Positions 19,401 to 59,544 of a stretch of DNA of 64,000 bases are shown piece after piece. The stretch is from a virus, in the IMG/VR virus record IMGVR_UViG_3300029286_000030; one strand, 5' to 3'. The position numbers and the translations under genes are program-made. The stretch's first letter is position 1. Each line of letters starts with the position of its first letter. The notes under the pieces are model-generated. The model was given only the letters and a program-made list of their open reading frames with translations, made no database searches and had not been told where the DNA came from.

Positions 19401-19422
19401 ATTAATCTATAAGATTCCTTTA

Positions 19423-19437
19423 TTTAAAAACCTTTGT
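19423..19437 (-). promoter_or_regulatory. BRE/TATA-like promoter (minus reading CAAAGGTTTTTAAAT), TATA 3' edge 24 nt from ATG (leaderless)
   Basis: Conserved motif and spacing. Confidence 0.5.
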
Positions 19438-19438
19438 G

Positions 19439-20797
19439 TTAACGGCTTGCGTCATATTTAAGTTGTTGCGCAGGTGTTAATTTAGAATACATTGTTTTTA
19501 ATGTATATGATGTATCAATTGTTCTTCCTGTTGGAACGTTATATCGCATCCATGCACTTTCTTGTTTGTCAGTAGCTGCTGTTGCTTCTTCTTGTTTAGC
19601 AAAATTTAAAATAGTATTTGATTTATCAACTGCAGCGTCAAATTCAGATCCTGCTTTTTGAATTTTTGCTGTATTTGCAACATCATATTTACTTGCTCTA
19701 TCAGCTAAAATTTTTTCAGCTCTTCTAACAGGAGCTTCATTTGCTAAATTAGTTCCACCAACTAATGATATAAATCCTTTTTTTCTTTCTGTAGCTGCTT
19801 CTAAAATTCTTGCTTGACTTTTTATTAAAGCAGCTGCTCCAGCTTTTTCTGCTTCATACTTAGCTCTATCAACTGCAACCATTTTTTCTAATTCTGCTTT
19901 AAAAGATGGATCTGTAAGTTTCTTTTCTAATATTTCTGCATAAAGTTTATTATATGCAGCATTATCTCGTTGATCTGAAAGTTCTGGTCTATTTTGTTCT
20001 ATCCAAAGTTCTACTTCAAAATCTGTTTTCCATCCTGTTTTAGGATCATAAGTATAAGTTGTTTTTCCATCTTGTATTGTTTGTCCACCGCTTCCGCTTC
20101 CTCCTCCGCTTCCTCCTCCGCTTCCTCCTCCGCTTCCTCCTCCGCCCCAACTTGAATTTTGATTAGGTCCAGAATAAATTGGTCCTGCTGGTGTAGAAGG
20201 TGTTGATGGTTTTGGTAAATTGAAAGGATTTGATGTAGATGGTATATTAAAATAATTTGTAGATGGTTTTGGTGCTGCAGGTGGTGGTGATGCTGGTGGT
20301 TTTGGTGGAGCTGGAGGTGGTGATGCTGGTGGTTTAGGTGGATTAAAAAAATTATTTACTGCTGATGCAATTTGATCAAATGGCCATCCTTGTCTATCAT
20401 AATCAAATGGATAACAATCTTTATTATTTGGAACTCCATCACTATCAAAGTCCATACGTCCATATTTTTTTCTATACTTCTCAGGAACTGCATTCCATGG
20501 TTTATTCATAAATCTTTTAGAAAGAGTGTGTATTTCGCGTGCATCTTCTTCAGCTTTCTTAGCTCTTATTTTCTTTTCTTTTAATTCGTGTATTAATTCA
20601 GTTAATTGTTTTTTATTTAATTCTGTAGATTGTGCGGGCCCAACGTGTAGTGTTTTTTGAACTTGCCTTCCCCATGTATTTGGATATGGGTCAAATGCTG
20701 TAGAAGAACCAATTATTTTTGGTGTAAAATCGTCTGCTAATTTATCAATAGACGAAAAATAATCTGTCTTACCCATCATATTATTTGGTTTATTCAT
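19439..20797 (-). CDS. Hypothetical protein (452 aa) with thrombospondin-type-3-like Ca-binding motif (DFDSDGVPNNKDCYPFDYD), Pro-rich and (GGGS)n linkers, conserved C-terminal domain shared with neighbouring paralogue
   Basis: ORF, promoter motif 23 nt upstream, paralogy to 20840..22294. Confidence 0.75.
   Translation of the reverse strand: MNKPNNMMGKTDYFSSIDKLADDFTPKIIGSSTAFDPYPNTWGRQVQKTLHVGPAQSTELNKKQLTELIHELKEKKIRAKKAEEDAREIHTLSKRFMNKPWNAVPEKYRKKYGRMDFDSDGVPNNKDCYPFDYDRQGWPFDQIASAVNNFFNPPKPPASPPPAPPKPPASPPPAAPKPSTNYFNIPSTSNPFNLPKPSTPSTPAGPIYSGPNQNSSWGGGGSGGGSGGGSGGGSGSGGQTIQDGKTTYTYDPKTGWKTDFEVELWIEQNRPELSDQRDNAAYNKLYAEILEKKLTDPSFKAELEKMVAVDRAKYEAEKAGAAALIKSQARILEAATERKKGFISLVGGTNLANEAPVRRAEKILADRASKYDVANTAKIQKAGSEFDAAVDKSNTILNFAKQEEATAATDKQESAWMRYNVPTGRTIDTSYTLKTMYSKLTPAQQLKYDASR
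19780..19976. repeat. About 197-bp block identical to 21184..21380 (inter-paralogue gene conversion/duplication)
   Basis: Near-100% nucleotide identity between the two tandem paralogues. Confidence 0.8.
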
Positions 20798-20815: not shown

Positions 20816-20835
20816 TTTATTTATAAAGCTTTCGT
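20816..20835 (-). promoter_or_regulatory. BRE/TATA-like promoter (minus reading CGAAAGCTTTATAAATAAAG), 23 nt from ATG
   Basis: Conserved motif and spacing. Confidence 0.5.
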
Positions 20836-28745: not shown

Positions 28746-29189
28746 TTAGTTCACCCCTCTAATTGGTTGTGGTGAAACTACGTTTAATATTTTAAATTCC
28801 CACTTATAACCAAATCCATATGATTCTACTGGAACATATGTATTTTCGAAATTGCAATAATCAAAAGCTGAATAACTTCCACTATTATTTACATAATTCC
28901 AATTTGGCCCAAATGTTTGTTTACAAAACATGTCTCCATATACTTGGTGATTTTGAATTGAATTTGATCCAACATAAATCATTGCACCAAAAAATATTAG
29001 ACAAATAATTGCTGCAAATGCACCCAAAAATTTTAAATCGCACATCATCATTCTAAAACTCTTTCTTTCTTTAGGAGTTAATTCAGTGTCTGGAATAAAT
29101 TTTTTATTATAAAACATTCTATTACTATCATCTCTCACCTCAATTATTTGTCCTACTCTCAATTGTCCACTATCTTTTTTTTCTACCAT
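28746..29189 (-). CDS. Membrane protein immediately upstream of and abutting SPFH (possible NfeD-like partner); start at MVEKKD Met
   Basis: Stop abuts SPFH start; central TM; ORF-track N-extension overlaps HNH gene. Confidence 0.45.
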   Translation of the reverse strand: MVEKKDSGQLRVGQIIEVRDDSNRMFYNKKFIPDTELTPKERKSFRMMMCDLKFLGAFAAIICLIFFGAMIYVGSNSIQNHQVYGDMFCKQTFGPNWNYVNNSGSYSAFDYCNFENTYVPVESYGFGYKWEFKILNVVSPQPIRGVN

Positions 29190-29247
29190 TTTATCATCTC
29201 CAATAATATAATATGTTCTACGAAATCCTTTTAAACCTATCTTTATT

Positions 29248-29865
29248 CTAAAATTTGTCACTTTTAATTAAATTTTCTGTTGCCCATAACGGTTGCATAT
29301 TTGTATAATGAAAACATTTTTGCTGTTCTTCTGGTTTTCTTAAATCAAAAGCAGCGCAAGGTTTTATATGATCTATATGCCATCCAGTATGACCATAATT
29401 AGACCAATTCATTCCTGGTTTAAATTGATGTTCTAAATGTTGTTTTACTTCTTCAATTGAACATCCTAAAAGGTTAACTGTGCGATCTGATTTTATATCA
29501 TTAAATAATGCGTGCCAAATTCTTGATCTTAAATTACATAGAATTTTAAAATGTATGTTACTTTTTCTTTTGGATATTTGATACTTATTTATGTATCCTG
29601 TTCGCTGTTTTTTAATTTTTTCCTTATTATTTTTATTATACTCTTTATTATATTGATTTATTTGTTGTTTATGTTTTAAAATATATGTTTTTGTATTTGT
29701 AAGAATTCTTTTTTTATTTTTTATATAATATTCTCGTTTTTTATTGAGAATTATTTTTTTATTTTTTATATAATGAAGTTTTCTATAATCTTGTTTATTC
29801 TCTTTATGCAAAATATAATAATTTTTATCATATGATTTTCTTTCATTTATATTTTTATATGGCAT
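29248..29865 (-). CDS. HNH endonuclease paralogue
   Basis: GWHIDHIKPCAAFDL...CFHYTNMQPLWATENLIKSDKF. Confidence 0.8.
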   Translation of the reverse strand: MPYKNINERKSYDKNYYILHKENKQDYRKLHYIKNKKIILNKKREYYIKNKKRILTNTKTYILKHKQQINQYNKEYNKNNKEKIKKQRTGYINKYQISKRKSNIHFKILCNLRSRIWHALFNDIKSDRTVNLLGCSIEEVKQHLEHQFKPGMNWSNYGHTGWHIDHIKPCAAFDLRKPEEQQKCFHYTNMQPLWATENLIKSDKF

Positions 29866-29869
29866 AAAA

Positions 29870-31384
29870 TCACTCTAATATCATAGTTTCAATTTGTTTA
29901 ATAATTTCAATTGGTTCTTTTTCTATTAAAACAATTAGGTCCAATAGCTTTTCGGACCATCCAGCAATACAAACAACATTCTTTTCTCCTTCTGGGAAAA
30001 CAGTTGTTCCATATCCTGCAAGATCTACCAAATATAATTTAGTATTTGGATTAATATCTTTCAAATATTGGTGCCATAATTTTTGGAAGTCGTTGTTTGG
30101 ATTAATATCTTTCAAATATTGGTGCCATAATTTTTGGAAGTCGTTGTTTGGATTTGTATACATATTATATGTTTCAGAATTCCATAATTGGCAGTCAGTG
30201 AAGATTATTAATCTATCAAGATTTAATTTTTTTGCAATCATATATTCAATAATTTTAAATCCATTTGTTGAGCATCCGACATCTATGTCAGCGACTTGTG
30301 TTGCATTTTGAATAATACTTCTTTTAGATAGTTGTGCAATTGCAAAATCGTCCCCGAATGCTCCGCATATTGATTTATCGCATATCTTATTTGAAAGAGA
30401 CATTAAAACATCTCCAACTTCTTTATAAGACATTTTACTTTTATCTGATAATGCAGTTTGCATAGACCCAGAATGATCTGTTACTAACATAGTTGTTCCA
30501 ACTAAATGTGGAATATTAGTAGCACTTAATTCAACAGCATCTTCTAAAGCATCTAATACTGTAGATGCATTTGGATTATCATTTTCTTTAATAACCTTAT
30601 ATGCTGAATAAAATCTAAATGGATACATCTTGCTTTTTCTAATAATAGCTTCATTAGAAAGTTTTGGTAAATATAATTCAGTATCTACTCCAGTTTTTAA
30701 GAAATTATTTAAGTTTCTAATTGTTGCAAATATAGGCATCTTAGGAGCTATGTGTTCCCATGTTTCTTTTGTAGACCCATTAGTAGATATATATGTTTCC
30801 CAAGTTTCTGGAATAGCCATAGTTCTTGAATTAATTCTATCAAATAACATATCTTCTTCACTATCAAGTGGAGTTGGGTGCGCAAGTCTAAGAGCATCTC
30901 TTAATTTTACTTCACCATCTTTATCATATTTTGCTAATTGATATTCATCAAATCTATGGAACGCATCTGCCAAAGATAATTTGAGTTGTTTTGGAACTGA
31001 ATTATCAAAGTTCTTTAAATGATAAGCCAACGCTTCTGTTATTTCATCTGCTCTTCTTATAATATAATTAGCATACTTTCTAACATATGGTTTTGCTTCT
31101 GTGCAATTAGCTGCTTCAACTAAAATAGCAATTGGAACAGATCTTAAATATAAATCATTTCTTAAAAATACCGCAAGTTTTAATACATATTCTGGATCTT
31201 TCTTTAAAACAGTTTTAATAAGTTCAATAGTTTCGTTTGTTGTATCTCCATAGAACTTATCTTCTTTCATAAGCTGTGCTGCGCACATTAAGTATAATTT
31301 AACTTTATCTGATGGAACATATGCTAACGCTCCTTCTTTATTAGTTGTTTTTGAAACAATTTTTACAGGTTTATTAAATCTCAT
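29870..31384 (-). CDS. Ro60-like protein: TROVE domain + C-terminal vWA (MIDAS DHSGSM)
   Basis: vWA motifs LVTDHSGSM, LIIFTDCQ; N-terminal half shows Ro60-like blocks (LYLMCAAQLM..FYGD cf. Ro60 FLCFGSEGGTYY; LRLAHPTP cf. LRLSHLKP). Confidence 0.7.
   Translation of the reverse strand: MRFNKPVKIVSKTTNKEGALAYVPSDKVKLYLMCAAQLMKEDKFYGDTTNETIELIKTVLKKDPEYVLKLAVFLRNDLYLRSVPIAILVEAANCTEAKPYVRKYANYIIRRADEITEALAYHLKNFDNSVPKQLKLSLADAFHRFDEYQLAKYDKDGEVKLRDALRLAHPTPLDSEEDMLFDRINSRTMAIPETWETYISTNGSTKETWEHIAPKMPIFATIRNLNNFLKTGVDTELYLPKLSNEAIIRKSKMYPFRFYSAYKVIKENDNPNASTVLDALEDAVELSATNIPHLVGTTMLVTDHSGSMQTALSDKSKMSYKEVGDVLMSLSNKICDKSICGAFGDDFAIAQLSKRSIIQNATQVADIDVGCSTNGFKIIEYMIAKKLNLDRLIIFTDCQLWNSETYNMYTNPNNDFQKLWHQYLKDINPNNDFQKLWHQYLKDINPNTKLYLVDLAGYGTTVFPEGEKNVVCIAGWSEKLLDLIVLIEKEPIEIIKQIETMILE
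30050..30151. repeat. Perfect 51-bp tandem duplication (2 copies) inside Ro60-like gene, in frame (duplicates NPNNDFQKLWHQYLKDI)
   Basis: 30050-30100 identical to 30101-30151. Confidence 0.9.
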
Positions 31385-31407
31385 ATCTTATCACTTCATT
31401 TTTTATT

Positions 31408-31495
31408 GTGGAGGCAAAGGCGAACACGGAGTAGCTCTTGCGAGCAAAGATTCCAAGTGTATCGAAGTATCCGTATTCTACAGCACTCCGATATA
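31408..31495 (-). ncRNA. Candidate structured RNA / structured 5' leader upstream of the Ro60-like gene (Y-RNA-like hypothesis)
   Basis: GC-enriched segment in AT-rich context between promoter motif (31513-31526) and ATG at 31384; terminal helix CGGAGUG...(A)CUCCG encloses internal hairpins; no ORF. Confidence 0.25.
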
Positions 31496-31512
31496 TTTAT
31501 GGACCATTCTAT

Positions 31513-31526
31513 TTATAAAGGTTTCT
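31513..31526 (-). promoter_or_regulatory. TATA/BRE-like motif (minus reading GAAACCTTTATAAA) about 130 nt upstream of Ro60-like ATG
   Basis: Motif family match; unusually long distance to ATG. Confidence 0.4.
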
Positions 31527-31533
31527 ATAACCT

Positions 31534-32235
31534 CTATTTTCCAAACCGTCTATGTCTGTTTTCATAGTCAGCTATAACCGCATCAATATCTTCTTCAGTT
31601 ATATCTGGCCAATATTTATTTAAAAATGCAAATTCAGAATAAGCACTTTGAAAAGTTAAAAACCCGGACAGGCGCTGTTCTTTTGATGTTCGAACAATTA
31701 GATCCGGGCTTTTAAAATCAGCGTATAAATACTTCTGTAATTCATTTACAGTAAGCTCTCCTGGATTAACTTTTCCTTGGGCAAATTCTGCAGTATATTT
31801 TTTTACTGCATCAACTATCTCGGTTTGCCCGTCATACCCAATAGCAATAATTACTTGTTTGTTACGAAACTGTGAAGTATATTGTTCTATCTTCTCCATT
31901 CGGGTTTGAAATCCTTTTGAGAATACATCTCTACGTCCAATAAATTTTATATTTATTCCATTTTCAATAACTTCATTTCGTTTTAATACTTTATCAAGTT
32001 CTTGTTCGAAAATTTTTAATAAAATCATTAGCTCGGTTTTGGGGCGTTCTAAATTTTTCAACGAAAGAGTATAAAAAATTACTGTTGAAATGTTCGGGTA
32101 TTTAGATAACCACCCCAAAACATCCCAAGCTTTTCTAGTTCCTTCGATATAGCTTTGCGTAAAGGACACTCCGGCCGCATTCGCATATCTTCGGTTACCA
32201 TCTGGGATGAATCCGATGCTTTCTAACATATTCAC
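31534..32235 (-). CDS. uppS: Undecaprenyl/di-trans-poly-cis polyprenyl diphosphate synthase (cis-prenyltransferase)
   Basis: IPDGNRRYA near N-terminus; C-terminal DLIVRTSKEQRLSGFLTFQSAYSEFAFLNKYWPD...ENRHRRFG aligns to UppS; SD-like GGAG upstream. Confidence 0.88.
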   Translation of the reverse strand: MNMLESIGFIPDGNRRYANAAGVSFTQSYIEGTRKAWDVLGWLSKYPNISTVIFYTLSLKNLERPKTELMILLKIFEQELDKVLKRNEVIENGINIKFIGRRDVFSKGFQTRMEKIEQYTSQFRNKQVIIAIGYDGQTEIVDAVKKYTAEFAQGKVNPGELTVNELQKYLYADFKSPDLIVRTSKEQRLSGFLTFQSAYSEFAFLNKYWPDITEEDIDAVIADYENRHRRFGK

Positions 32236-32295
32236 ATACTCCTTATATAATATAACTTTAACTCTTTAAAAGAAATTTTGGTACAAATCTAATAT

Positions 32296-33120
32296 TCATA
32301 AATATATAATTTCATCATTTGATTTTTGATTACCAACAAAATTATTACTTTTTTCTATGTTTATATTGGCTTCTAGTGGTTGTAAATTTTGTAATTTCCA
32401 TCCTTTTTTTATTAACTGTTCTTCTGTTTTAAACCATGATAACGGTATAATATGATCGATATGCCAGTATGTTCCATAATTATTCCAACTCATTTCTGGG
32501 GTAAATTGTCTTTCTAAATGATTTTTTAATTCGATATTATTATATCCTAATGATATCTTCCATCCAACTTCCTTTTTACAACCAATATTCTTTAAGCTTT
32601 TATTCAGTGCGTTCCCAATACTATGATTTAGTTTTAATAGCGGGTTTGTTTTTCTTTTATTTAATATTTCTTTATTATGCTTTCTTTTATATTTATTTCT
32701 ATATATTTTTATTTTTTCTGGATGTTCTATACGAAATTTGGCAGATCGTTTTATTATAATTTCCTTTTGTTTTAAATATTTTTGGTGATTCTTTTCTTTA
32801 TTTTTAATTGTGTCTTTTTTAGTTTGTTCTTTTATTTTTTCTTTATTGTTTAGTTTATATTCTTTATCTTTATTTCTTTTTATTTCTCTGTTTATCTCTC
32901 GCCATTGCTTATTATATTCTTTTATTTTTAACTTATTATTAATTTTATATTTTCTATGCCTTAATTTTTCTTTTTCGTTATTAGTGAATCTATATAATTT
33001 ATTTTTTTCTACTAACTCTTTTTTATGTTTTATTCTATATCGTATTTCGCTTTCTCTCCTTTTGTCCTTATTAATCAAACGATATTTTTTATCATATTCT
33101 CTTTTTTCTTCTTTATTCAT
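32296..33120 (-). CDS. HNH endonuclease paralogue with long Lys-rich periodic N-terminal repeats (KYRxxNKEKI)
   Basis: HIDHIIPLSWF...NLQPLEANINIEKSN; 11-aa periodic basic repeats. Confidence 0.75.
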   Translation of the reverse strand: MNKEEKREYDKKYRLINKDKRRESEIRYRIKHKKELVEKNKLYRFTNNEKEKLRHRKYKINNKLKIKEYNKQWREINREIKRNKDKEYKLNNKEKIKEQTKKDTIKNKEKNHQKYLKQKEIIIKRSAKFRIEHPEKIKIYRNKYKRKHNKEILNKRKTNPLLKLNHSIGNALNKSLKNIGCKKEVGWKISLGYNNIELKNHLERQFTPEMSWNNYGTYWHIDHIIPLSWFKTEEQLIKKGWKLQNLQPLEANINIEKSNNFVGNQKSNDEIIYL

Positions 33121-34574: not shown

Positions 34575-36491
34575 TCATGAAAAAAATGATGCCAATGTTG
34601 ATTGCGAATCCTTTATAAAGTATGCAAGCTCGGCCCATACATTTTCAAGATTAATATCTGTTATCTTCATTTTATTCTTTTCAAACTCTTCAGCCGTACA
34701 ATATTTTTTATCTTTACCAACTCCAACTCCCCGAAGATTTGGAATTAAAAAATGTATTCCAGGCCCATACTTAGTTGAAATCTGTGCTTGAAGTTGTGAA
34801 GGCATTTTATAATCGGCAGCACTCTTTACACTAAATCTAATTTCTGCCAAAGATAAATCTTTTTTTAATAAATCATATACTGTATCTCTTAAATATGCTT
34901 CAGAGAATTTTACTCTACGCTCTTCTGTTATTTTAGGAACAAGCACTTCCCAAAACATTTTTCTACTCAAAGTGCTTAGGGATTTCTTTCTAACACCAAG
35001 ATTTTTAACTACAATTTTTCCTTCGTTGGTTCTATAAATATAATTTTTCTTAATAAACTTTTTTGGTTTATTAATATAATCATATTCATCCATCTCTGAA
35101 TCAGTTTCTTTATCTCCAACATTTCCTTTGAAAAACCACATGTCAGATATTTCAGCATCTATTGACATATCAAATTTATCATATGGAAATGGAACTGCAT
35201 CTTTTATTTCTTTTATTATATCCTGTTTAAGCTGTAACATCTTTTCTTTATTATCATATATATCAATTAGATATACAGAATCGGTATCAGTATATATTAC
35301 ATTATAGCCAGCATCTGCAAATCTCTTTCTAGCTAACTTTACCCATTGTCTTCCTAATCTAGTTACATCTGCAGCAGAAGTTCTATTATAAAGATGTGAG
35401 AATGATGGATTACCAAGTAACCCATATGCGGCATTCAATTGTATTTTTAATGAATATTCGCGTGGATCCTTTTCTTTCTTATATTGTAATCTCCATTCAT
35501 ACCATTTCTTAAATAACTGTTCAACTTTACCTTGAACTTTATTATTATAAACACCTTCAACATTAAACTTACCATTGCCATTCCAACCTTCTACAGATGG
35601 AGAAAATATATTACACTGATGCATTATACTTGGATATAGTGATGCAAAATCAAGACAGTATATTTTTCCAGAAAAATATTCACCTGCTGGAAAACTTACA
35701 TATCCACCACCATAAGACTGTTTATCTTTTACATTAGAATATTCTTCTTTTAAATCTAAAGATTTACAAATACTTTTATATGTGAATACAGCTGTTGAAC
35801 ATGATAAATATTTCTTTGAAGACACATCTTCTGGAATAACATATTCTTTAAAACTTGAAAAATAATCCTCAATCCATACATATAATTTTTTTGTAACTTC
35901 TAAATCTCTTAATGTGTAATCCTTTATCTTATTTGTTTCATCAATTGTCCATTGGTCGGTCTCTTTTTTTAATATATTATAATCAAAGTCTTCTATTTTA
36001 GCTGTGTCATCACTAACAATTCCAATTGTTCTTGATATAAAATCAAGAGAATGCCGTAATAGTAAATCATTAAGCATTCCTTTCTTTACTTTCATTGCAC
36101 TAGCACGTTTTTTTATAATCATCATAAGATCAATATTAATTTTTCCTTTAATACGAAATGTTGCATTTTGATCTTTTTTTACAATATCATCATATCCATT
36201 ATAATAAAGAACTTGATTATCATATCCTTCAAAAAATGTTTTCTGATGGAATCCACCAAGATTATTAAATCCAACTAAAAAATAATGTCTATTTATCATA
36301 TCTCTAATTTCTTTTTCATGATATAATAAGTAATACTTATCATCATCAAATGAATAACATCCAAACACTCTTAATTTGTGTGTTTGAGTTGGAGATCTAT
36401 ATTCTGCAGCAGTTTCAAGATCGTATATTAATACACCTTTAAATCTGTCTTCAACTTTAGGTTTTATAACTTCATCAGCCATTGAATGCAC
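34575..36491 (-). CDS. polB: Family B DNA polymerase, compact (638 aa) with 3'-5' exonuclease motifs
   Basis: Exo I YDLET; motif A DFASLYPSIM; motif B KIQLNAAYG; motif C YTDTDSVYL. Confidence 0.9.
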   Translation of the reverse strand: MHSMADEVIKPKVEDRFKGVLIYDLETAAEYRSPTQTHKLRVFGCYSFDDDKYYLLYHEKEIRDMINRHYFLVGFNNLGGFHQKTFFEGYDNQVLYYNGYDDIVKKDQNATFRIKGKINIDLMMIIKKRASAMKVKKGMLNDLLLRHSLDFISRTIGIVSDDTAKIEDFDYNILKKETDQWTIDETNKIKDYTLRDLEVTKKLYVWIEDYFSSFKEYVIPEDVSSKKYLSCSTAVFTYKSICKSLDLKEEYSNVKDKQSYGGGYVSFPAGEYFSGKIYCLDFASLYPSIMHQCNIFSPSVEGWNGNGKFNVEGVYNNKVQGKVEQLFKKWYEWRLQYKKEKDPREYSLKIQLNAAYGLLGNPSFSHLYNRTSAADVTRLGRQWVKLARKRFADAGYNVIYTDTDSVYLIDIYDNKEKMLQLKQDIIKEIKDAVPFPYDKFDMSIDAEISDMWFFKGNVGDKETDSEMDEYDYINKPKKFIKKNYIYRTNEGKIVVKNLGVRKKSLSTLSRKMFWEVLVPKITEERRVKFSEAYLRDTVYDLLKKDLSLAEIRFSVKSAADYKMPSQLQAQISTKYGPGIHFLIPNLRGVGVGKDKKYCTAEEFEKNKMKITDINLENVWAELAYFIKDSQSTLASFFS

Positions 36492-39306
36492 CTAATGTAC
36501 TATTAAATACATTCACTTTCGCAAAGTCCCCAAATAGTAATATGAGTTTATAATAATCTTTTATTACAAAATATTCTACTCCGTCAATTGAAGCAAACTC
36601 AATTCTATAATCTTGTTCAAGTTTATGCTTATCAAGTCTATCAATAATTGATGAAACTCCACGATTTTCTGGTTTATAATTACTATTAGCTATATAGTCG
36701 TGTAATTCTCCAACATATATTGTACCCTTCTTTCCTTTTTCTCTTACAAAATTATATATTGAAGATACAACTGCTTTCATTTCAAGATTCTCATTATCGA
36801 AACTTGCTTTAAGCCCAGCACTTAAAAACTTATTAACATCTGGATTATCAACAACTTTTTCAAAACTTCTTAAATTAATTGATTTGCATACTTCTAAATA
36901 ATGTTTTGCTTTATCAACAATTCTAACTGCATCATAATTATTATTAATTATATCATTCATATAATCAAGACATGCTAATCGCAATGCTGTTCCATTTAAG
37001 TGTTTATAACTATTCAATGAGCCACTCATAAATTTTCGAACACTTTCTACACTTGCTTTTTCAGCAAATGCTGCTATTGTATCAGCATATGTTTTATCAA
37101 ATGGAGTGTCCAAAAAAGCGCGTATTTGTGGGTCTCTTAACATTTTTGTAAATACAGGTGCCGCTTGTTTTCGTATATACTCTGTTTTGGCAAATAATAC
37201 ATCAAGTTCATCTTCTGTATATTTTTGTTTTCCACTAATACGATTAGTATCTGGATCAAAAACAATTAATCCTATTCTACTTCCAATTGCGGCAAAATTA
37301 CTTGTAATTGATTTTAAAGTTGAATCAAACTGTCGTACAATTTCACTCATTGATTCTGCTTTATCTGAAAATTCTTTTATTTCTTTTGGATTTCCTAAAA
37401 ATGTTATTGAAGATAATCCTTCACATGTTATACTTTTTTTACCAACATCAATATTTATTATACCCATTTCTAAGAAACTTAATAGTTTTCCATATAAAGA
37501 TTTAGGTTGTTCTTCTTCAAGTTCATCAATATATACTGGCATTACATATCTATGTAATGTTCCACGATTAATTTCATCACCAGTTGCAAACCCCATTAAA
37601 TTTTGTATTGTTGTTCTAGCTGCATTATGCCCCATTCTTGTTGATATAGTTGTTTTTCCAGCTTTAGTGCCTGTATAAATAACTTTATGATTATTATAAA
37701 ACTGATATGTAAAAAAATCAGCTGTAGAAATATCTGGTATTAAAAAATCACTTTCCATTGCTAATTTAACTCTATTATCAATATTTAACCCAAGTGAAAC
37801 ATGATCCTCGATAAGTTTCTTTGTGTCTTCATTACTCAAAGACTTTACATCATCTTCATCAATACCAGAACCTAAACATCTTAAGTATGAATTAATATTT
37901 TTCATATCTTCAGTTACAATCCAATCAAAAAGAGTTGAATCTTGTGACATTTTTTCAGCTTTCTTCTTATCCATACCAAAATTAACTGCCATCTTTATTA
38001 ATATTTTTGGTTCTGGTGGGTGTTCTAAAAACAAATCATATAATACGTGATTAGTTTTTAATGGAGTTACAAACTTTAATTGGTCTCCTTCTCTTACTTC
38101 AGATTCATCTAAACAAAGGAGATATCTAAAAGGATTACCAACAAGAATTCTTGTTTCAAATAAAGTATATACTGGTGTATTAGTTATAACATCGTGTTCT
38201 CCAAGAAGTGTATTATTTCCTTGGTAAACATTTTTCATAATAACAATTTTAGCTTTTTCTGCTTTCTTTGTAAATTTAACTTTCTTGTCATCATATCTAA
38301 AATTATTATATTGACATTTGAAACATGGATCTTTTGTTCCTGTTTTTTTACAATAATTAAAAATTTCACCACAATTAAATTTCTTTAAAGTTCCTGCTTT
38401 AAATGAATCGTCCCATCCTTCAAATTCTTTTTGTTCCATTCCTTGAAATTTGCAAAAAGATTCTCTTAATTCTTTGTTTCCAGTATAATTAGTATAAACT
38501 GCTAAATTTTTAATTAAAATACTATGCCTATCTCCTTCTGGAAACTTTTCAGTTAATGCTACAGTATCAAAAAATGGGCATTTTCTTTTTGCTTCAACTT
38601 CTGTACTAATAGTTTCAGAATCATTCATTTTAGAAGTAATTGGGTTGTCCTTATATAAATTATTAATAAGATCTATAAATTCAAAATTATCATTATATCC
38701 TCTATAATCTAACCATCTTGATAATTTTTTAGCACTAAGATTAAATGTTCCTATTACTCTAGAAACTCTTGATAAATTAAATGTTGCAGAATCAACTCCA
38801 AATTTATCAACTAAATGTTGCTTTAATATTTTAAGTTTTTGTTTCCACTCTTCTCTATTTTCTTTTGTTATAACTACTGCTTTAAAAGGAACTAATAAAT
38901 GATATCCTCTTCCACTAAATGCCATAGATGCGGCAATATTATTATTATTAAATCTTAATAATAAATCAGTTGCTTGTTTTTCTATTTCTTCAATAGATTG
39001 TTTTTCGTTGTGCGCATCAAAATCACACATTATACATCCAAGCCGTTTTACATCTTCATCTCCACCCTTAAGATGTTCTCTTTCATTAAGGCCTGCAGAA
39101 ATATTCATTCCCTTATCAATATTATCTTCAATAGTACTCAAAAATTCGTCTTTAGAATGAACAAAGAAATTTCGAGCTGGAGAATTATGTTTATTATTAT
39201 ATAATCTTAATTCTGTCTCTGACTCGTGGTGAAGGAGATCGTAATATTTCTCCGCATCTTCGCGACAATAATTATTGTTCGTTTCCACTAAAATCGTCCC
39301 CATCAT
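36475..39306 (-). CDS. Primase-helicase fusion: N-terminal archaeo-eukaryotic primase (prim-pol) domain + C-terminal P-loop (SF3/D5-like) helicase
   Basis: AEP motifs CDFDAHN and SGRGYHLLVPF; Walker A YTGTKAGKTTIS; 17-nt overlap with polB. Confidence 0.8.
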   Translation of the reverse strand: MMGTILVETNNNYCREDAEKYYDLLHHESETELRLYNNKHNSPARNFFVHSKDEFLSTIEDNIDKGMNISAGLNEREHLKGGDEDVKRLGCIMCDFDAHNEKQSIEEIEKQATDLLLRFNNNNIAASMAFSGRGYHLLVPFKAVVITKENREEWKQKLKILKQHLVDKFGVDSATFNLSRVSRVIGTFNLSAKKLSRWLDYRGYNDNFEFIDLINNLYKDNPITSKMNDSETISTEVEAKRKCPFFDTVALTEKFPEGDRHSILIKNLAVYTNYTGNKELRESFCKFQGMEQKEFEGWDDSFKAGTLKKFNCGEIFNYCKKTGTKDPCFKCQYNNFRYDDKKVKFTKKAEKAKIVIMKNVYQGNNTLLGEHDVITNTPVYTLFETRILVGNPFRYLLCLDESEVREGDQLKFVTPLKTNHVLYDLFLEHPPEPKILIKMAVNFGMDKKKAEKMSQDSTLFDWIVTEDMKNINSYLRCLGSGIDEDDVKSLSNEDTKKLIEDHVSLGLNIDNRVKLAMESDFLIPDISTADFFTYQFYNNHKVIYTGTKAGKTTISTRMGHNAARTTIQNLMGFATGDEINRGTLHRYVMPVYIDELEEEQPKSLYGKLLSFLEMGIINIDVGKKSITCEGLSSITFLGNPKEIKEFSDKAESMSEIVRQFDSTLKSITSNFAAIGSRIGLIVFDPDTNRISGKQKYTEDELDVLFAKTEYIRKQAAPVFTKMLRDPQIRAFLDTPFDKTYADTIAAFAEKASVESVRKFMSGSLNSYKHLNGTALRLACLDYMNDIINNNYDAVRIVDKAKHYLEVCKSINLRSFEKVVDNPDVNKFLSAGLKASFDNENLEMKAVVSSIYNFVREKGKKGTIYVGELHDYIANSNYKPENRGVSSIIDRLDKHKLEQDYRIEFASIDGVEYFVIKDYYKLILLFGDFAKVNVFNSTLGAFNG

Positions 39307-39502
39307 TTAATTCAACATAATCAATGATTGAACTTATTCGTATTCCGCGTTTTTGATTTTTTAGATCGATCCCCTCCACAAACTCATTACTAATCGAAGT
39401 AACCCGTAGAGTATATATACTATTTTGTTCAAACCCTTTTGAAACCATTAATTTATAACGGCGCCCTATCTCTAATACCATATCCTTCACCATCCTTTTC
39501 AA
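39272..39502 (-). CDS. Hypothetical protein (76 aa)
   Basis: ORF only. Confidence 0.3.
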   Translation of the reverse strand: MKRMVKDMVLEIGRRYKLMVSKGFEQNSIYTLRVTSISNEFVEGIDLKNQKRGIRISSIIDYVELNDGDDFSGNEQ

Positions 39503-39567
39503 TTATCCTTCTTTTTTTAAAAGAAGTTATTAAATAATATTACCACAAATCTCTTTTTAAAGCTATG

Positions 39568-46436: not shown

Positions 46437-46520
46437 TGCAGGGGAACGGATTCGGACCGTTGAAAGCACTAAGCTACAGGATCTTAAGTCCTGCCCCTTT
46501 GACCGCTCGGGAACCCCTGC
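46437..46520 (-). tRNA. tRNA-Leu (anticodon UAA), class II with long variable arm
   Basis: Minus-strand fold: acceptor GCAGGGG/CCCCUGC, 3-bp D-stem with GG in loop, anticodon stem CAGGA/UCCUG with loop CUUAAGA (U33, anticodon UAA, G37), 15-nt variable arm, T-stem AACGG/CCGUU, discriminator A; T-loop reads UCCGAAU (C at position 55, noncanonical); no encoded CCA. Confidence 0.55.
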
Positions 46521-49625: not shown

Positions 49626-50798
49626 TCATCCTTTCACCACCGCTAATGGACTCAATTTTGTTTTTATTTTTACCAAATCTTTTTGATTTTCCATAACAAC
49701 ATCAATATCTTTATAACTTCCCGGAGCTTCGTCTAAATTTTCTATATTCCGTACGGAATGTAATATCCCCAAATCATTTAATTTTTTCTGCTCATCTGCG
49801 AGATTTAAAGTTCTCTGTGCGACTTTTCTACCCATTTTTCTACCTGCACCATGAGAACAAGATTTAAATGACCACATATTTCCGAGCCCCTCGACAATAT
49901 AACTTGAAGTTCCCTGCGACCCAGGAATTAATCCAATTTCTCCTAATTGAGCTGATGTGGCACCTTTTCTATGAACCCAAACATCTTTGCCAAAATGTTT
50001 TTCGTTTACTGCATAATTATGGTTAATATCATATTCCCATGTTATATTTGCACCTAAATGTCTATTAAAACTTTCTTTAATAAAATCCATCATAAATGTT
50101 CTATTATTTTTAGCAAACTCCATACAATAATTCATTTCTGAAATATAATTTGATCCTTCTTGAGAATCTATTGGTAATGATGCTAAATCCCATTCTGCAG
50201 GTATATTTGAATACCATGTTTTATTTAATTCTTTTGCAAGATTATTATAATATTCGCATACTTTAAACCCCAAATTTCTTGAACCGGAGTGTATCATTGC
50301 ATAAATAAATCCATCATCCCCTTTTTGAATTTCACAAAAATGATTACCAGAACCTAAACTTCCAACTTGATGTGTTGCTGATTTATATTCGCTTTCCACA
50401 ATTCCGCCTGGCAATATAGGTGATTTTGGCATTCTATCTTCATTGGATTCTTCTCTGTGTTTAAATCCAACTGGAACATCTTTACGGATATCCGTAAGGA
50501 TTTTAACAATATCAGTTTTATTAATTTCTTTAAGATCTGTTTTTATTGAATGCATCCCACACGATACGTCCGAACCTACTGCATGAGGAATTATCATATT
50601 TGTTGTTGCAAAAACTCCACCTATAGGAATTCCAAATCCGCTATGCGCGTCAGGCATTAATGCAACATGAGAAAAAATAAATGGTAAATTGGCAGCATTT
50701 TTTGCTTGCTGTAATGCTTCGTTTTCCAAATCAGTAGCCCATACTTTAATTGGAACTCTTTCAGTAGTAATATTAATCATAATCCACACGCATCCCAA
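49626..50798 (-). CDS. rtcB: RtcB-family RNA ligase (short, 390 aa)
   Basis: ALMPDAHSGFGIPIGGV, GSDVSCGMH, SGSRNLG, CSHGAGRKMGRK motifs. Confidence 0.82.
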   Translation of the reverse strand: MGCVWIMINITTERVPIKVWATDLENEALQQAKNAANLPFIFSHVALMPDAHSGFGIPIGGVFATTNMIIPHAVGSDVSCGMHSIKTDLKEINKTDIVKILTDIRKDVPVGFKHREESNEDRMPKSPILPGGIVESEYKSATHQVGSLGSGNHFCEIQKGDDGFIYAMIHSGSRNLGFKVCEYYNNLAKELNKTWYSNIPAEWDLASLPIDSQEGSNYISEMNYCMEFAKNNRTFMMDFIKESFNRHLGANITWEYDINHNYAVNEKHFGKDVWVHRKGATSAQLGEIGLIPGSQGTSSYIVEGLGNMWSFKSCSHGAGRKMGRKVAQRTLNLADEQKKLNDLGILHSVRNIENLDEAPGSYKDIDVVMENQKDLVKIKTKLSPLAVVKG

Positions 50799-51547
50799 TT
50801 AATTAATGTATCTAAACGTTTAAAAAGGTTTGTTTTATCCTTTTTATATTCGTGTTGCCAAACTATTATTGTTTCTAAATTATGCTCTGCTTTTATTTTA
50901 GCTATTCGCATTTCATCATTATACCATATCATTGAGACTTCTTTTCCATTAATCTGCTCATCGTGCTTATATTTTTCTGGATTTGCGTGCCAATAATCTC
51001 CATAAAATTCTATAATCAAATTTAAATTCTCTATAAAAATATCGGGTCTTGCCCAGCTTCTATCAGAAAATCGTAATGCGGGGTGCTGTACAGCAGTTGG
51101 GCATATATTTTGTAATTCTCTAAAAAAATTATCTTCTAATTTACTATGATTAGAAGAATACTTCCCTTTTACTATTGCCCCATTTCTCCAAGATTCTTTC
51201 ATTTTATCGCTTCGTAATATTCTCTGTTTATTATCAGTAAATTGTTTTAATGCACTCGCTCGTTGAAATTGTTTAAATTCATTTGAACGTGTTAATCCAG
51301 TAGACTTTGTAATTACTTTATTTCTATATTCTGGAATCTTCCATAACGATTTAGATATCTTAGACAATTTTATTTTAGTCGCATTAATACTTTCTTTAGA
51401 ATGATGTTTTCCATAAAATGGATTGTTCTTTCCAGTTCTATCTCTACATTTATTACAATACCCGAATTTACAATTACGTGATATTGGTTTTTCACACGTT
51501 ATACATGTTTTCATAAAGTATTCACTATTTCTTTTAAATATCTCCAT
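50777..51547 (-). CDS. Freestanding homing-endonuclease-like protein: Zn-ribbon + NUMOD3-like motif (GKNNPFYGKHHSKES) + C-terminal restriction-endonuclease-like domain (IIEFYGDYWHANPEKY)
   Basis: Motif matches to phage homing-endonuclease modules; overlaps rtcB start by 22 nt; start trimmed to Met43 (alternative Met54 at 51514). Confidence 0.55.
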   Translation of the reverse strand: MEIFKRNSEYFMKTCITCEKPISRNCKFGYCNKCRDRTGKNNPFYGKHHSKESINATKIKLSKISKSLWKIPEYRNKVITKSTGLTRSNEFKQFQRASALKQFTDNKQRILRSDKMKESWRNGAIVKGKYSSNHSKLEDNFFRELQNICPTAVQHPALRFSDRSWARPDIFIENLNLIIEFYGDYWHANPEKYKHDEQINGKEVSMIWYNDEMRIAKIKAEHNLETIIVWQHEYKKDKTNLFKRLDTLINWDACGL

Positions 51548-57794: not shown

Positions 57795-57817
57795 AATATA
57801 TTTAAGGAATTGCTTAC

Positions 57818-58021
57818 TTATAAACCTTTTGGATTAGTTGGCCCAGGCAACAAAATAATTTTTTTCTTAAAAACCCAATGTGGAAGTTTATTCCTTTTTT
57901 GCCGTTGTTCTTCTTTACTCTTAAGTTCATTTACTGTTTGAAATTCGGCACCGACAGGTTTAATTATTGTTGGAGTTCTTTGTTTTCGTTGTGGCCCAGT
58001 CATAAAAAGAATTATCCCCAA
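57818..58021 (-). CDS. Small basic protein (67 aa)
   Basis: ORF. Confidence 0.35.
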   Translation of the reverse strand: MGIILFMTGPQRKQRTPTIIKPVGAEFQTVNELKSKEEQRQKRNKLPHWVFKKKIILLPGPTNPKGL

Positions 58022-59453: not shown

Positions 59454-59475
59454 ATAATTAAATAGATATTTCTTA

Positions 59476-59492
59476 TTTATAAACCTTTCTAA
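59476..59492 (-). promoter_or_regulatory. BRE/TATA promoter (minus reading AGAAAGGTTTATAAATA), first transcription unit leaving the strand-switch region
   Basis: Motif and spacing. Confidence 0.5.
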
Positions 59493-59522
59493 ATATTATA
59501 CCCTAATAATAATTCAATGTTT

Positions 59523-59544
59523 GGGGCGAAGCCCGGGCCCGGCC
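59523..59544. repeat. GC-rich palindromic element ggggcgaagcccgggcccggcc (GGGC-GAA-GCCC hairpin + 10-bp perfect palindrome ccgggcccgg)
   Basis: Strong GC island in AT-rich intergenic DNA. Confidence 0.7.

What the first reader, a model, noticed from the sequence alone, without database searches (positions are those of the whole stretch)
29870..31533. Ro60 (TROVE+vWA) orthologue with a GC-rich structured ~100-nt leader (Y-RNA-like candidate), with RtcB encoded in the same element
The 504-aa protein has a clear C-terminal vWA/MIDAS (DHSGSM, IIFTDCQ). Its N-terminal half shows Ro60/TROVE-like blocks, including an LRLAHPTP block that matches the Ro60 LRLSHLKP block. Between the promoter motif (31513-31526) and the ATG (31384) lies an unusually long non-coding segment, about 130 nt where most genes here are leaderless. 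Its central ~90 nt (31408-31495) are much GC-richer than the surroundings and fold with a terminal helix (CGGAGUG.../...ACUCCG) plus internal hairpins. In bacteria, Rsr is encoded next to Y RNAs and often with RtcB (rsr-yrlBA-rtcBA). Here RtcB is at 49626-50798. A Ro60-Y RNA-RtcB RNA-surveillance module on an archaeal-type virus/MGE would be new, since Ro60 orthologues are generally considered absent from archaea. The gene also carries a perfect 51-bp in-frame tandem duplication (30050-30151), which signals recent slippage.
Basis: partly seen in the sequence, partly recalled or inferred. Interest (0 to 1): 0.75.

Follow-up and report, generated by a model that had tools for sequence, protein, structure and literature searches.

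The report
Ro60 gene with Y-RNA leader
An AT-rich, archaeal-type mobile element or virus encodes a Ro60 RNA-surveillance protein, and its messenger RNA begins with an 80-nt structured RNA of the family of Ro60 partner "Y RNAs" known from bacteria and phages; this is a new member of a known system in an unusual host domain.

Summary

- **Protein.** ORF 29870-31384(-) is a Ro60 orthologue. Pfam gives TROVE at 4e-31 plus vWA_Ro60. The MIDAS residues are intact. The AlphaFold model's top 13 PDB matches are all Ro60.
- **RNA.** The GC-rich leader (31407-31490, - strand) is a conserved structured RNA. A covariance model built only from this clade finds more than 140 sites in 160 unrelated Ro60 loci. 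All lie on the Ro60 strand, flanking the gene. Some carry the canonical tRNA-like YrlA domain.
- **Reciprocal test.** A model built only from those other RNAs hits the window once, exactly on the leader (61 bits, E 3e-13).
- **Structure.** The shared fold is a bulged basal helix, an internal loop, a 9-bp helix and a UACUUCGA motif, with strong covariation.
RtcB lies 18 kb away under its own promoter. Ro60 on archaeal viruses or elements is already reported (HGTV-1, Nidhogg viruses, Borgs).
- **Possibly new.** I found no description of a Y RNA in an archaeal-type element, or of one placed at the exact 5' end of the Ro60 mRNA.

Verdict: new member of a known kind, moderately interesting.

The parts
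31510..31525 (-). Archaeal-type promoter (BRE-like GAAACC plus TATA box TTTATAAATA) driving the Y-like RNA and Ro60 as one transcript
   Evidence: The motif AAASSTTTWTAAAYA occurs 17 times in the window against 5.8 expected. In leaderless genes the ATG follows about 20 nt after it. It is invariant in seven related loci while the 20-nt spacer varies.
31489..31489 (-). Predicted transcription start, which is the first paired G of helix P1 (inferred from promoter spacing, not measured)
   Evidence: There is a 20-nt spacer after the TATA motif, as at the leaderless genes 19439-20797, 11895-19400 and 58821-59453. The spacing is the same in L001, L003 and L004.
31407..31490 (-). Y-RNA-like structured RNA (short, YrlB-like form without a tRNA-like domain)
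   Evidence: R1 scores 101.5 bits. R2, built without this clade, scores 61.2 bits at E 2.8e-13 and gives the only hit in the window. Compensatory changes appear among relatives. Family covariation is strong.
31410..31489 (-). Basal bulged helix. P1 is G31489-C31410, G31488-C31411, A31487-U31412, G31486-C31413. U31485 is bulged. P1b is G31484-C31414 and C31483-G31415.
   Evidence: RNAfold MFE. All five P1 pairs covary in 29 family members. P1b was not in the model structure, yet it is 95% paired with pair types AU/GC and GC/CG/UA/GU.
31422..31478 (-). Helix P2, 9 bp (GAAUACGGA 31478-31470 with UCCGUGUUC 31430-31422), enclosing the apical domain
   Evidence: The GAA/UUC to UAU/AUA compensation is seen in L001 and L004. 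All nine pairs covary across the family.
31462..31469 (-). Conserved single-stranded motif UACUUCGA directly 3' of P2. It is the candidate Ro60-contact motif and shares the YCGA core of GNCGAA and GGUCCGA.
   Evidence: It is invariant in the clade and nearly invariant in 29 family members. The comparison with the published motifs is from PMC4201824 and is a resemblance, not a test.
31434..31445 (-). Apical hairpin P3 (GCUC-GCAA-GAGC). Relatives have GGUCC-GAAA/UUCG-GGACC.
   Evidence: The stem sequence is replaced while pairing is kept, and stable GNRA or UUCG tetraloops are maintained.
31390..31397 (-). Shine-Dalgarno-like GAAGUGAU, 5 nt before the ATG and 12 nt after the RNA
   Evidence: It is conserved in seven loci. 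The same GGTGAT-type element precedes internal genes in the window.
29870..31384 (-). Ro60 orthologue, 504 aa (TROVE HEAT-repeat ring plus vWA domain with MIDAS)
   Evidence: Pfam TROVE 4.4e-31 and vWA_Ro60 above its cut-off. PHROG 850 at 1.7e-55. PDB sequence hits are phiLo Ro60 at 5e-39 and Xenopus Ro60 at 2.5e-5. The AF2 model has pLDDT 87, and its top 13 Foldseek hits are all Ro60 with TM up to 0.75.
30045..30154 (-). Perfect in-frame 51-bp tandem duplication (NPNNDFQKLWHQYLKDI twice) inside the vWA domain
   Evidence: TRF gives period 51, 2.2 copies and 100% identity. It is absent from P0001-P0004, which are 487 aa. The extra copy falls in a low-confidence segment, residues about 401-430, before helix 429-443.
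49626..50798 (-). RtcB RNA ligase, on the same element and strand but 18 kb away with its own promoter
   Evidence: Pfam RtcB 7e-107. The promoter motif lies at 50817-50831.

Best explanation
The 31407-31490 (-) segment is a Y RNA, the dedicated small-RNA partner of the Ro60 protein encoded immediately downstream.

An archaeal-type BRE/TATA promoter starts transcription at the first G of the RNA's basal helix. The Y RNA is therefore the 5' end of the Ro60 mRNA, and I found no terminator or second promoter between them.

The RNA folds as follows:
- a basal helix with a single bulged U (P1, bulge, P1b);
- an asymmetric internal loop;
- a 9-bp helix (P2);
- the conserved single-stranded motif UACUUCGA;
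- a small apical domain with a tetraloop hairpin in place of the tRNA-like domain of YrlA. In form it resembles the short YrlB-type Y RNAs.

Inferred mechanism:
- Ro60 made from the same transcript binds the bulged stem and UACUUCGA module.
- The RNA is then trimmed or cleaved from the mRNA, as happens with the co-transcribed Y RNAs of Mycobacterium smegmatis and Deinococcus, or it stays attached and damps Ro60 translation.
- The RNP gates or tethers Ro60 for handling damaged or misfolded RNA during the conflict between element and host, alongside the element's RtcB ligase.

Shown here: the homology, the structure, the linkage, the strand and the promoter spacing. Inferred: Ro60 binding, RNA release and the biological role.
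For: **Protein identity.**

**RNA conservation with compensatory changes.** Seven loci of the clade carry the RNA, always directly upstream of Ro60.

**Forward homology test.**
- Model R1 was built from the clade only.
- It gives 92 hits at E<=1 in 80 viral Ro60 loci and 55 in 80 genomic Ro60 loci, every one on the Ro60 strand.
- At E<0.01, 67 hits fall in 43 of the 80 viral loci: 58 upstream, 9 downstream and none inside the gene.
- About 437 kb of unrelated viral contigs gave only two hits, at E>0.1.

**Link to canonical YrlA.** Long hits contain a T-arm, a closed acceptor-like hairpin and a D-arm in the apical loop. This is the published YrlA architecture (PMC4201824).

**Reciprocal homology test.** Model R2 was built from 29 non-clade RNAs. 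It hits the window only at 31405-31492(-), with 61.2 bits and E 2.8e-13.

**Covariation.** 96.6% of cells are paired against 46-52% in the slid controls, and all 16 pairs show double changes. This includes the 2-bp P1b behind a 1-nt bulge, which was not in the model and so was not fitted.

**Transcription.** Promoter spacing puts the start at the first nucleotide of P1 here and in L001, L003 and L004. No terminator-like site lies between the RNA and the ATG.

**Precedent.** Y RNAs upstream of rsr that are processed from one precursor are described in PMC4201824. Phage Ro60 binding to phage Y-like RNAs is shown in PMC12135203.

**Archaeal loci.** These show the same layout:
- HGTV-1, L210 3893-3989, ending 5 nt before the Ro60 ATG. 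This match is weak (10 bits).
- Methanocella and Bathyarchaeia MAGs.
Against: - There is no Rfam Y_RNA hit, or any other family hit, in the leader even at E<=10.
- The published bacterial motif is GNCGAAN0-1G. Here the motif is UACUUCGAU, so only the CGA core matches.
- I could not test the models against an experimentally validated YrlA or YrlB sequence.
- In phage phiLo the models hit downstream of Ro60, not the published upstream Yrl1 and Yrl2.
- There are no expression or binding data.
- With no terminator, the RNA may never exist as a free species.
- Archaea lack PNPase, the known Y-RNA-tethered effector, so the effector is unknown.
- Whether the element is a virus, a plasmid or a small-genome DPANN-like archaeon is unresolved.
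Confidence: 0.75

Rival explanations
1. The element is a purely cis-acting operator. The Y-like module stays part of the Ro60 5' UTR and serves only as an autoregulatory binding site: Ro60 binds its own leader, 12 nt from the Shine-Dalgarno element, and represses translation. No free Y RNA is made.
For: - No terminator or second promoter separates the RNA from the ORF.
- The RNA ends 12 nt before the conserved SD in all seven clade loci.
- In many viral loci the nearest family member lies within 16-100 nt of the Ro60 start.
Against: - The same RNA family also occurs downstream of Ro60.
- It occurs hundreds to thousands of nt upstream.
- It occurs in tandem arrays of three to five copies.
- It occurs with tRNA-like effector domains.
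- These arrangements fit trans-acting RNAs. Co-transcribed Y RNAs are known to be processed out of their precursors (PMC4201824).
- This reading is compatible with the best explanation rather than exclusive of it.
Confidence: 0.17
2. The element is an unrelated structured leader, such as a riboswitch, a thermosensor or an mRNA-stabilising 5' stem. Its resemblance to RNAs near other Ro60 genes would then be convergent or an artefact of the model.
For: - No curated RNA family matches.
- The single-sequence folding z-scores are modest.
Against: - The covariance-model hits are reciprocal, with a 61-bit hit from a model that excludes the clade.
- All 147 hits are on the Ro60 strand and none lies inside a gene.
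- Control DNA is clean.
- The primary-sequence motifs GUAGA...GG(A/U)UACUUCGA and UCGCUUUU are shared.
Confidence: 0.04
3. The GC-rich segment is a remnant or a chance feature, for example a decayed tRNA or homing-endonuclease insertion scar, and has no function.
For: - Homing endonuclease genes flank the locus.
- Relatives L001 and L004 carry an extra Vsr-like endonuclease gene just upstream of the RNA.
Against: - Compensatory base changes and tetraloop swaps maintain the structure.
- The promoter is positioned precisely at the RNA's first nucleotide in four divergent loci.
- ARAGORN finds no tRNA there.
Confidence: 0.02

Closest known systems
Bacterial and phage Y RNAs YrlA and YrlB, encoded next to rsr/Ro60 (Chen et al. 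2014, PMC4201824)
   Same: - It is encoded beside Ro60 on the same strand and co-transcribed with it, as in M. smegmatis where YrlA and YrlB lie upstream of Rsr on one precursor.
- Its size is about 80-130 nt.
- The 5' and 3' ends form a long stem.
- A conserved 5'-side motif contains CGA.
- The covariance models built here also pick up RNAs with the T-arm, closed acceptor and D-arm layout that defines YrlA.
   Different: - The window RNA has no tRNA-like domain, so it is YrlB-like rather than YrlA.
- The motif is UACUUCGA rather than GNCGAAN0-1G.
- It is driven by an archaeal-type BRE/TATA promoter and sits at the exact 5' end of the Ro60 mRNA.
- The host element is archaeal-type.
Thermus phage phiLo Ro60 with Yrl1 and Yrl2 (PMC12135203; PDB 9KOP, 9L5Y)
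   Same: - It is the closest solved structure by sequence (E 5e-39) and by fold.
- It is a virus-encoded Ro60 with virus-encoded Y-like RNAs that bind it in vitro.
   Different: - The published Yrl1 and Yrl2 were chosen upstream of the gene by their CGAA motifs.
- The family defined here matches two other sites, downstream of phiLo Ro60 (L209 4022-4089 and 4213-4294).
- The host is bacterial.
Metazoan Ro60-Y RNA RNP (Xenopus 1YVP; human Y1-Y5)
   Same: - The protein is a ring-shaped TROVE+vWA fold (TM 0.75 to 1YVP and 2I91).
- The RNA has a basal helix with a single bulged nucleotide and a UYCGA-type motif (GGUCCGA against ACUUCGA).
   Different: - There is no Rfam Y_RNA match.
- In metazoans the motif lies inside the bulged helix. 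Here it follows helix P2.
- There is no Pol III transcription, oligo-U tail or La binding.
Salmonella rsr-yrlBA-rtcBA RNA repair operon
   Same: Ro60, a Y RNA and an RtcB ligase are carried by one genetic element. A 46%-identical relative (L046) has an intein-containing RtcB and an RNA ligase 2-6 kb upstream of its Ro60 and Y RNAs.
   Different: In the window RtcB is 18 kb from Ro60, with more than 20 genes and several promoters between them. No RtcA or RtcR was found.
Ro60/TROVE genes of archaeal viruses and extrachromosomal elements (HGTV-1; Nidhogg Asgard viruses; Borgs)
   Same: - The element uses archaeal-type promoters and encodes Ro60.
- HGTV-1 is the best hit in the phage database (35% identity).
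- HGTV-1 has a similar GGAUACUUCAAUA stem-loop ending 5 nt before its Ro60 ATG.
   Different: The papers I read report only the protein (10.1101/2021.07.29.454249; PMC11208441). My full-text searches found no description of a Y RNA for these elements. The window's lineage has no close relative in IMG/VR or among the GTDB species representatives.

Membership tests
Ro60 / Rsr (TROVE+vWA RNA-binding protein) | TROVE (HEAT-repeat ring) domain | tested here: met
   Pfam PF05731 at 4.4e-31, 109 bits against a cut-off of 23. PHROG 850 at 1.7e-55 over residues 11-497.
Ro60 / Rsr (TROVE+vWA RNA-binding protein) | C-terminal vWA domain with MIDAS (DxSxS...T...D) | tested here: met
   PF25045 vWA_Ro60 at 28.6 bits against a cut-off of 27.7. 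D303, S305, S307, T373 and D397 are invariant in 31 homologues.
Ro60 / Rsr (TROVE+vWA RNA-binding protein) | Overall ring-plus-vWA fold like solved Ro60 structures | tested here: met
   The AF2 model has pLDDT 87 and pTM 0.85. The top 13 Foldseek PDB hits are all Ro60 (9KOP, 2I91, 1YVP, 9NFA, 2NVO), with E down to 3e-19 and TM 0.60-0.75.
Ro60 / Rsr (TROVE+vWA RNA-binding protein) | Binds Y RNA and misfolded RNA ends | not testable with these tools
   This needs EMSA or RIP with the recombinant protein.
Y RNA (bacterial/phage type, Chen et al. 2014) | Encoded next to Ro60 on the same strand | tested here: met
   The RNA ends 22 nt before the Ro60 ATG. The layout is the same in six related loci.
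Y RNA (bacterial/phage type, Chen et al. 2014) | Long stem formed by the 5' and 3' ends, interrupted by a bulge and an internal loop, supported by covariation | tested here: met
   The P1, 1-nt bulge, P1b, internal loop and P2 layout is 96.6% paired, with all 16 pairs showing double changes, against 46-52% in the slid controls. The clade itself shows compensatory changes.
Y RNA (bacterial/phage type, Chen et al. 2014) | Conserved 5'-side motif GNCGAAN0-1G (related to vertebrate GGUCCGA) | tested here: inconclusive
   The window has UACUUCGAU. The CGA core is present, with U in place of the first G and U in place of the second A. Many family members have UUCGAA. The published motif is taken from PMC4201824.
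Y RNA (bacterial/phage type, Chen et al. 2014) | Homology to RNAs with the canonical YrlA layout | tested here: met
   R1 hits include L075 2302-2434, L208 4250-4380, L145 and L072 1967-2107, each with a T-arm, a closed acceptor hairpin and a D-arm. The reciprocal R2 hit on the window is 61.2 bits.
YrlA subfamily (tRNA-mimic Y RNA) | tRNA-like domain with T- and D-arms | tested here: not met
   The apical domain is 39 nt with one tetraloop hairpin. There is no T-loop or D-loop, no ARAGORN call and no Rfam tRNA hit. It should not be filed as YrlA. It resembles the short YrlB-type.
Y RNA (bacterial/phage type, Chen et al. 2014) | Stable small RNA bound by Ro60 in vivo | not testable with these tools
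   No transcriptome or RIP data are available.
Rfam Y_RNA (RF00019, metazoan) | Match to the covariance model | tested here: not met
   There is no hit at the gathering threshold in the window and none at E<=10 over 29000-32500.
rsr-yrl-rtcBA RNA repair operon | RtcB (and RtcA) adjacent to and co-transcribed with Ro60 and the Y RNAs | tested here: not met
   RtcB at 49626-50798 is 18 kb away, with its own promoter motif at 50817-50831. No RtcA was detected among the ORFs scanned.

The most novel reading that the evidence does not exclude
Ro60-Y RNA RNPs form a genuine RNA-surveillance or counter-defence system in the archaeal domain, carried by viruses and other mobile elements.

- In this lineage the Y RNA is made as the 5' end of the Ro60 mRNA from an archaeal promoter. 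It acts both as an autoregulatory operator and, after cleavage, as the trans-acting partner.
- It recruits a non-PNPase effector, since archaea lack PNPase.
- Related archaeal elements (HGTV-1, a Methanocella MAG, L045, L046) also carry unpermuted tRNA-Y chimeras, one of them currently annotated as an intron-containing tRNA. The archaeal splicing endonuclease and RtcB might process these, which would give a mechanistic link between Ro60, Y RNAs and RtcB.
Probability: 0.2. Interest if true: 0.7.

Novelty: new member of a known kind. Interest (0 to 1): 0.5.

Why it matters
Ro60-Y RNA particles are well studied in animals as an autoantigen and in a few bacteria. Their role in viruses is only beginning to be explored, and I found no Y RNA described for an archaeal virus or element.

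This locus and the two covariance models built from it do three things:
- They define a sequence and structure signature that finds partner RNAs beside Ro60 genes in phages, bacteria and archaeal assemblies. The signature is a bulged basal helix, GUAGA...GG(A/U)UACUUCGA and UCGCUUUU. Rfam has no model that detects these RNAs.
- They give a compact test case, an 80-nt RNA plus a 504-aa protein under one promoter, for asking whether Y RNAs double as autoregulatory leaders.
- They raise the question of which effector replaces PNPase in archaea.

The 17-aa duplication is a natural insertion variant in the vWA domain.

Tried and rejected
- **Rfam.** A scan of the window and of the leader at a permissive threshold found no family. 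Twenty Ro60 loci gave only tRNA, tmRNA and Flavo-1 hits.
- **15-mer CGGATACTTCGATAC in IMG/VR.** The 37 matches are all chance hits, rejected by model R1. L031 lies inside an ORF.
- **Single-protein scan of viral contigs.** It found no relatives. An alignment-based scan was needed.
It is not maintained in L001 or L004.
- **A second UUACUUCGAU at about 39402 (-).** It lies in what proved to be conserved coding sequence, and L044 lacks the motif.
- **GUAGAAUACGGAAU at about 59760 (-).** It belongs to direct repeats in the strand-switch region, not to a Y RNA. R1 and R2 give no hit there.
- **ORF L043 7767-8945 as a possible RtcB next to Ro60.** There is no similarity.
- **phiLo as a positive control.** The models hit downstream of Ro60, not the published upstream Yrl1 and Yrl2, so this was not a clean validation.
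- **Review PMC10870794.** It is not held in the library.
- **Host assignment.** The only named PolB relative is from a Pacearchaeota MAG at 49% identity. The ERCC4 nuclease matches archaeal Hef/Xpf best. These suggest an archaeal host but do not settle whether the element is a virus or part of a cell genome.
Full report
**1. The observation**

The ORF at 29870-31384 on the minus strand encodes 504 aa and starts at an ATG. An in-frame TAA lies three codons upstream, so there is no N-terminal extension.

The 149-nt stretch between the upstream prenyltransferase gene (31534-32235; Pfam Prenyltransf 4e-56) and the ATG is non-coding. Its core, 31405-31493, has 50% G+C in a window that averages about 30%.

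The 51-bp repeat is perfect: 30045-30154, period 51, 2.2 copies, 100% identity. RtcB is at 49626-50798. Folding energy alone is unimpressive, with z = -2.9 for 101 nt and -1.2 for the whole 149 nt. The case for the RNA therefore rests on comparison.

**2. The protein**

- Pfam gives TROVE (4.4e-31) and the Ro60-specific vWA domain above its cut-off. PHROGs family 850, "RNA-binding protein", matches end to end.
- In a 31-sequence alignment the MIDAS residues D303, S305, S307, T373 and D397 are invariant.
- By sequence the best solved relatives are the Thermus phage phiLo Ro60 (5e-39) and Xenopus Ro60.
- An AlphaFold2 model (pLDDT 87, pTM 0.85) has Ro60 structures as its top 13 PDB matches, with TM up to 0.75.
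- The four closest database homologues (74-90% identity) are all 487 aa, exactly 17 aa shorter. The duplication is therefore recent and private to this sequence. The extra copy maps to a low-confidence surface segment before helix 429-443 of the vWA domain.

**3. The leader within its own clade**

Contigs carrying the close homologues, and three more contigs found by a DNA pattern scan of metagenomes, all carry the same element directly upstream of Ro60.

The seven sequences share three features:
- an invariant TATA-type motif;
- a variable 20-nt spacer;
- a conserved RNA core followed by a conserved GAAGUGAU Shine-Dalgarno element.

Within the core the helices are maintained by compensatory change:
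- P1 changes from GGAG/CUCC to GUGGG/CCCAC.
- The outer pairs of P2 change from GAA/UUC to UAU/AUA.
- The apical hairpin is GCUC-GCAA-GAGC in the window, GGUCC-GAAA-GGACC in L001 and GGUCC-UUCG-GGACC in L003 and L004.

ACUCCG is the 3' strand of P2. The two RNA variants do not follow the protein tree: L001 is 90% identical in protein but carries the other RNA variant.

**4. Is it a Y RNA?**

Rfam finds nothing, even at E<=10. I therefore tested homology directly.

*Forward test.* Model R1 was built from four clade sequences.
- I searched it against 80 Ro60 loci from IMG/VR and 80 from GTDB species genomes. None of these is more than about 43% identical in protein to the window.
- It gave 92 and 55 hits at E<=1, every one on the Ro60 strand.
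- At E<0.01 there are 67 hits in 43 of the 80 viral loci: 58 upstream of the gene, 9 downstream and none inside it. Several loci carry tandem arrays.
- About 437 kb of unrelated viral contigs gave two hits, both at E>0.1.

*Link to canonical YrlA.* The longer hits contain, inside the apical loop, a T-arm (GGUUCGAAUCC), a closed hairpin and a D-arm in that order. This is the published definition of the tRNA-mimic Y RNA YrlA (PMC4201824).

*Reciprocal test.* Model R2 was built only from 29 of these foreign RNAs. It finds exactly one site in the 64-kb window, 31405-31492 on the minus strand, at 61.2 bits and E 2.8e-13.

*Covariation.* Across the 29 RNAs, 96.6% of cells are paired against 46-52% when the partners are slid, and all pairs show double changes. 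The alignment is fitted to P1 and P2, which inflates those numbers. However, a further 2-bp helix behind a single bulged nucleotide was not in the model. It still covaries, with AU/GC at one pair and GC/CG/UA/GU at the other.

*Family consensus.* GGGG-U-AG-CGUA-GAGAACGG-UUACUUCGA ... CCGUUCUC-GCUUUU-CU-CCCC. A basal helix with a one-nucleotide bulge and a 5'-side motif containing YCGA are the features that the literature associates with Ro60 recognition (GGUCCGA in vertebrates, GNCGAAN0-1G in bacteria; PMC4201824, bioRxiv 10.1101/312249). That correspondence is a resemblance. I did not test it.

The window RNA has no T- or D-arm, so it is not a YrlA. In form it is a short, YrlB-like Y RNA.

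**5. How it is made**

The window uses a recurrent AAASSTTTWTAAAYA motif: 17 copies against 5.8 expected, and 0 of 100 shuffles reach 17. In first genes of operons the start codon follows about 20 nt after the motif. Internal genes instead have GGTGAT-type Shine-Dalgarno elements. This is the archaeal BRE/TATA and leaderless pattern, a judgement from general knowledge of archaeal promoters.

At the Ro60 locus the same motif lies 20 nt before G31489, the first paired base of P1. The spacing is identical in L001, L003 and L004. No terminator-like site and no second promoter separates the RNA from the ATG.

The Y RNA is therefore predicted to be the 5' end of the Ro60 mRNA. Whether it is cleaved off or acts in cis cannot be decided here. 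Co-transcription with processing has precedent in M. smegmatis and D. radiodurans (PMC4201824). Because the family occurs at variable distances, downstream of the gene and in arrays, a trans-acting role is the family's norm. An additional autoregulatory role in this clade remains plausible.

**6. Context and host**

- Nearly all genes from 0.2 to 59.5 kb are on the minus strand.
- The window encodes:
  - a family B DNA polymerase in two ORFs;
  - an ERCC4 nuclease whose best NCBIfam matches are archaeal Hef and Xpf;
  - RtcB;
  - MTA phosphorylase;
  - sugar-modifying enzymes;
  - several HNH and GIY-YIG-type endonucleases;
  - two giant repeat proteins.
- The only named relative of the polymerase is from a Pacearchaeota MAG at 49% identity.
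- One related contig was labelled viral by VirSorter, but IMG/VR has no close relative.

I conclude that the element is archaeal-type. I leave open whether it is a virus, a plasmid or part of a small archaeal genome.

RtcB is 18 kb from Ro60 behind its own promoter, so there is no rsr-yrl-rtcB operon here. A 46%-identical relative does have an intein-containing RtcB and an RNA ligase within 6 kb of its Ro60.

**7. Novelty**

Y RNAs beside Ro60 in bacteria and phages have been known since 2014, and a phage Ro60-Y-like RNA complex has been solved (PMC12135203).

Ro60 on archaeal viruses and elements is also not new:
- HGTV-1 is the best phage-database hit.
- Nidhogg viruses and Borgs are reported to encode it (10.1101/2021.07.29.454249; PMC11208441).
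- Relatives occur in Methanocella, Bathyarchaeia and haloarchaeal assemblies.
- The phiLo paper describes Ro60 as present in all three domains.

Within the searchable literature I did not find a Y RNA described for any archaeal virus or element. R2 finds family members upstream of Ro60 in the Methanocella and Bathyarchaeia contigs. HGTV-1 has a weaker but positionally identical candidate that ends 5 nt before its Ro60 ATG.

The finding is therefore a new member of a known kind. It has a modest extension in host domain and an unusual position as the exact 5' end of the mRNA.

**8. Limits**

- There are no expression or binding data.
- There is no validated YrlA or YrlB sequence against which to score the models.
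- E-values from the shortened calibration are rough.
- The A4 alignment is fitted to the model for P1 and P2, though not for P1b.
- The transcription start is inferred from spacing only.

Noticed in passing
L045 244-389; L046 ~5775-5905; L132 1804-1930; L210 (HGTV-1) 1022-1153: These are full tRNA-like genes with an open acceptor stem, a D-arm and a T-arm. The anticodon arm is replaced by an inverted copy of the Y module (P2', loop, P1', hairpin, P1, loop, P2, UUACUUCG). They look like an unpermuted counterpart of YrlA. The HGTV-1 copy is annotated 'tRNA Asp (gtc) + Intron'. Each sits next to a short Y-like RNA and a Ro60 gene.
   Followed up: partly
L209 (Thermus phage phiLo) 4022-4089 and 4213-4294: Both covariance models hit two sites downstream of the phiLo Ro60 gene, inside or overlapping the annotated hypothetical CDS phiLo_25. 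The published Yrl1 and Yrl2 were chosen upstream of the gene by their CGAA motifs. phiLo may therefore have further or different Y RNAs.
   Followed up: partly
window 59454-60275: This is a strand-switch region and the minimum of cumulative GC skew. It contains two direct repeats of about 60 nt (aaatcgc..aatgg.cc.agta.aat..ggaat...ttaggt.ccactaa) and an AT-rich tract with (TAA)n. It is a candidate replication origin.
   Followed up: no
window-wide, e.g. 19421-19435, 20818-20832, 50817-50831, 57815-57829, 59474-59488: There are 17 copies of AAASSTTTWTAAAYA against 5.8 expected. Most are on the coding strand about 20 nt before start codons, which indicates leaderless transcripts. Internal genes use GGTGAT-type Shine-Dalgarno elements. 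This is the archaeal-type expression signal set.
   Followed up: yes
window 29248-29865 and 32296-33120; L001 1544-2206; L004 519-1166: Lysine-rich HNH-type endonuclease genes flank the Ro60 locus in the window. In relatives L001 and L004 a Vsr/DUF559-like endonuclease gene is inserted between the prenyltransferase gene and the Y RNA promoter. The locus appears to be a hotspot for homing-endonuclease insertion.
   Followed up: no
window vs L001, L003, L004, L043: Two variants of the RNA exist: a GGAG type and a GUGGG type with UAU/AUA in P2. They do not follow Ro60 protein similarity. L001 has 87% gene DNA identity to the window but only 73% RNA identity and shares its variant with the distant L004. 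This suggests recombination or allele exchange of the RNA module.
   Followed up: partly
window 39307-39567 and 34575-39306: The apparent intergenic region upstream of ORF 36475-39306 is coding. A conserved N-terminal extension starts near 39481 and is also present in L044. The family B polymerase is split into two ORFs that overlap by 17 nt. Relatives encode the C-terminal part as a stand-alone protein of about 610-650 aa, some with inteins.
   Followed up: partly
window 46437-46520: ARAGORN calls a tRNA-Leu(UAA) with a UCCGAAU T-loop, but the Rfam scan of the whole window at the gathering threshold did not report it.
   Followed up: no
window 19175-19223 and 20093-20145: Two more perfect short tandem repeats (21 bp x 2.3 and 12 bp x 4.4) lie inside ORFs, besides the 51-bp one in Ro60. 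Recent in-frame slippage may be common in this element.
   Followed up: no
window 3335-10423 and 11895-19400: Two giant ORFs of 2362 and 2501 aa contain many diverged 81-nt (27-aa) repeats. The neighbouring 1027-aa ORF (203-3286) has Kelch-like repeats. They are probably surface or adhesin-like proteins.
   Followed up: no
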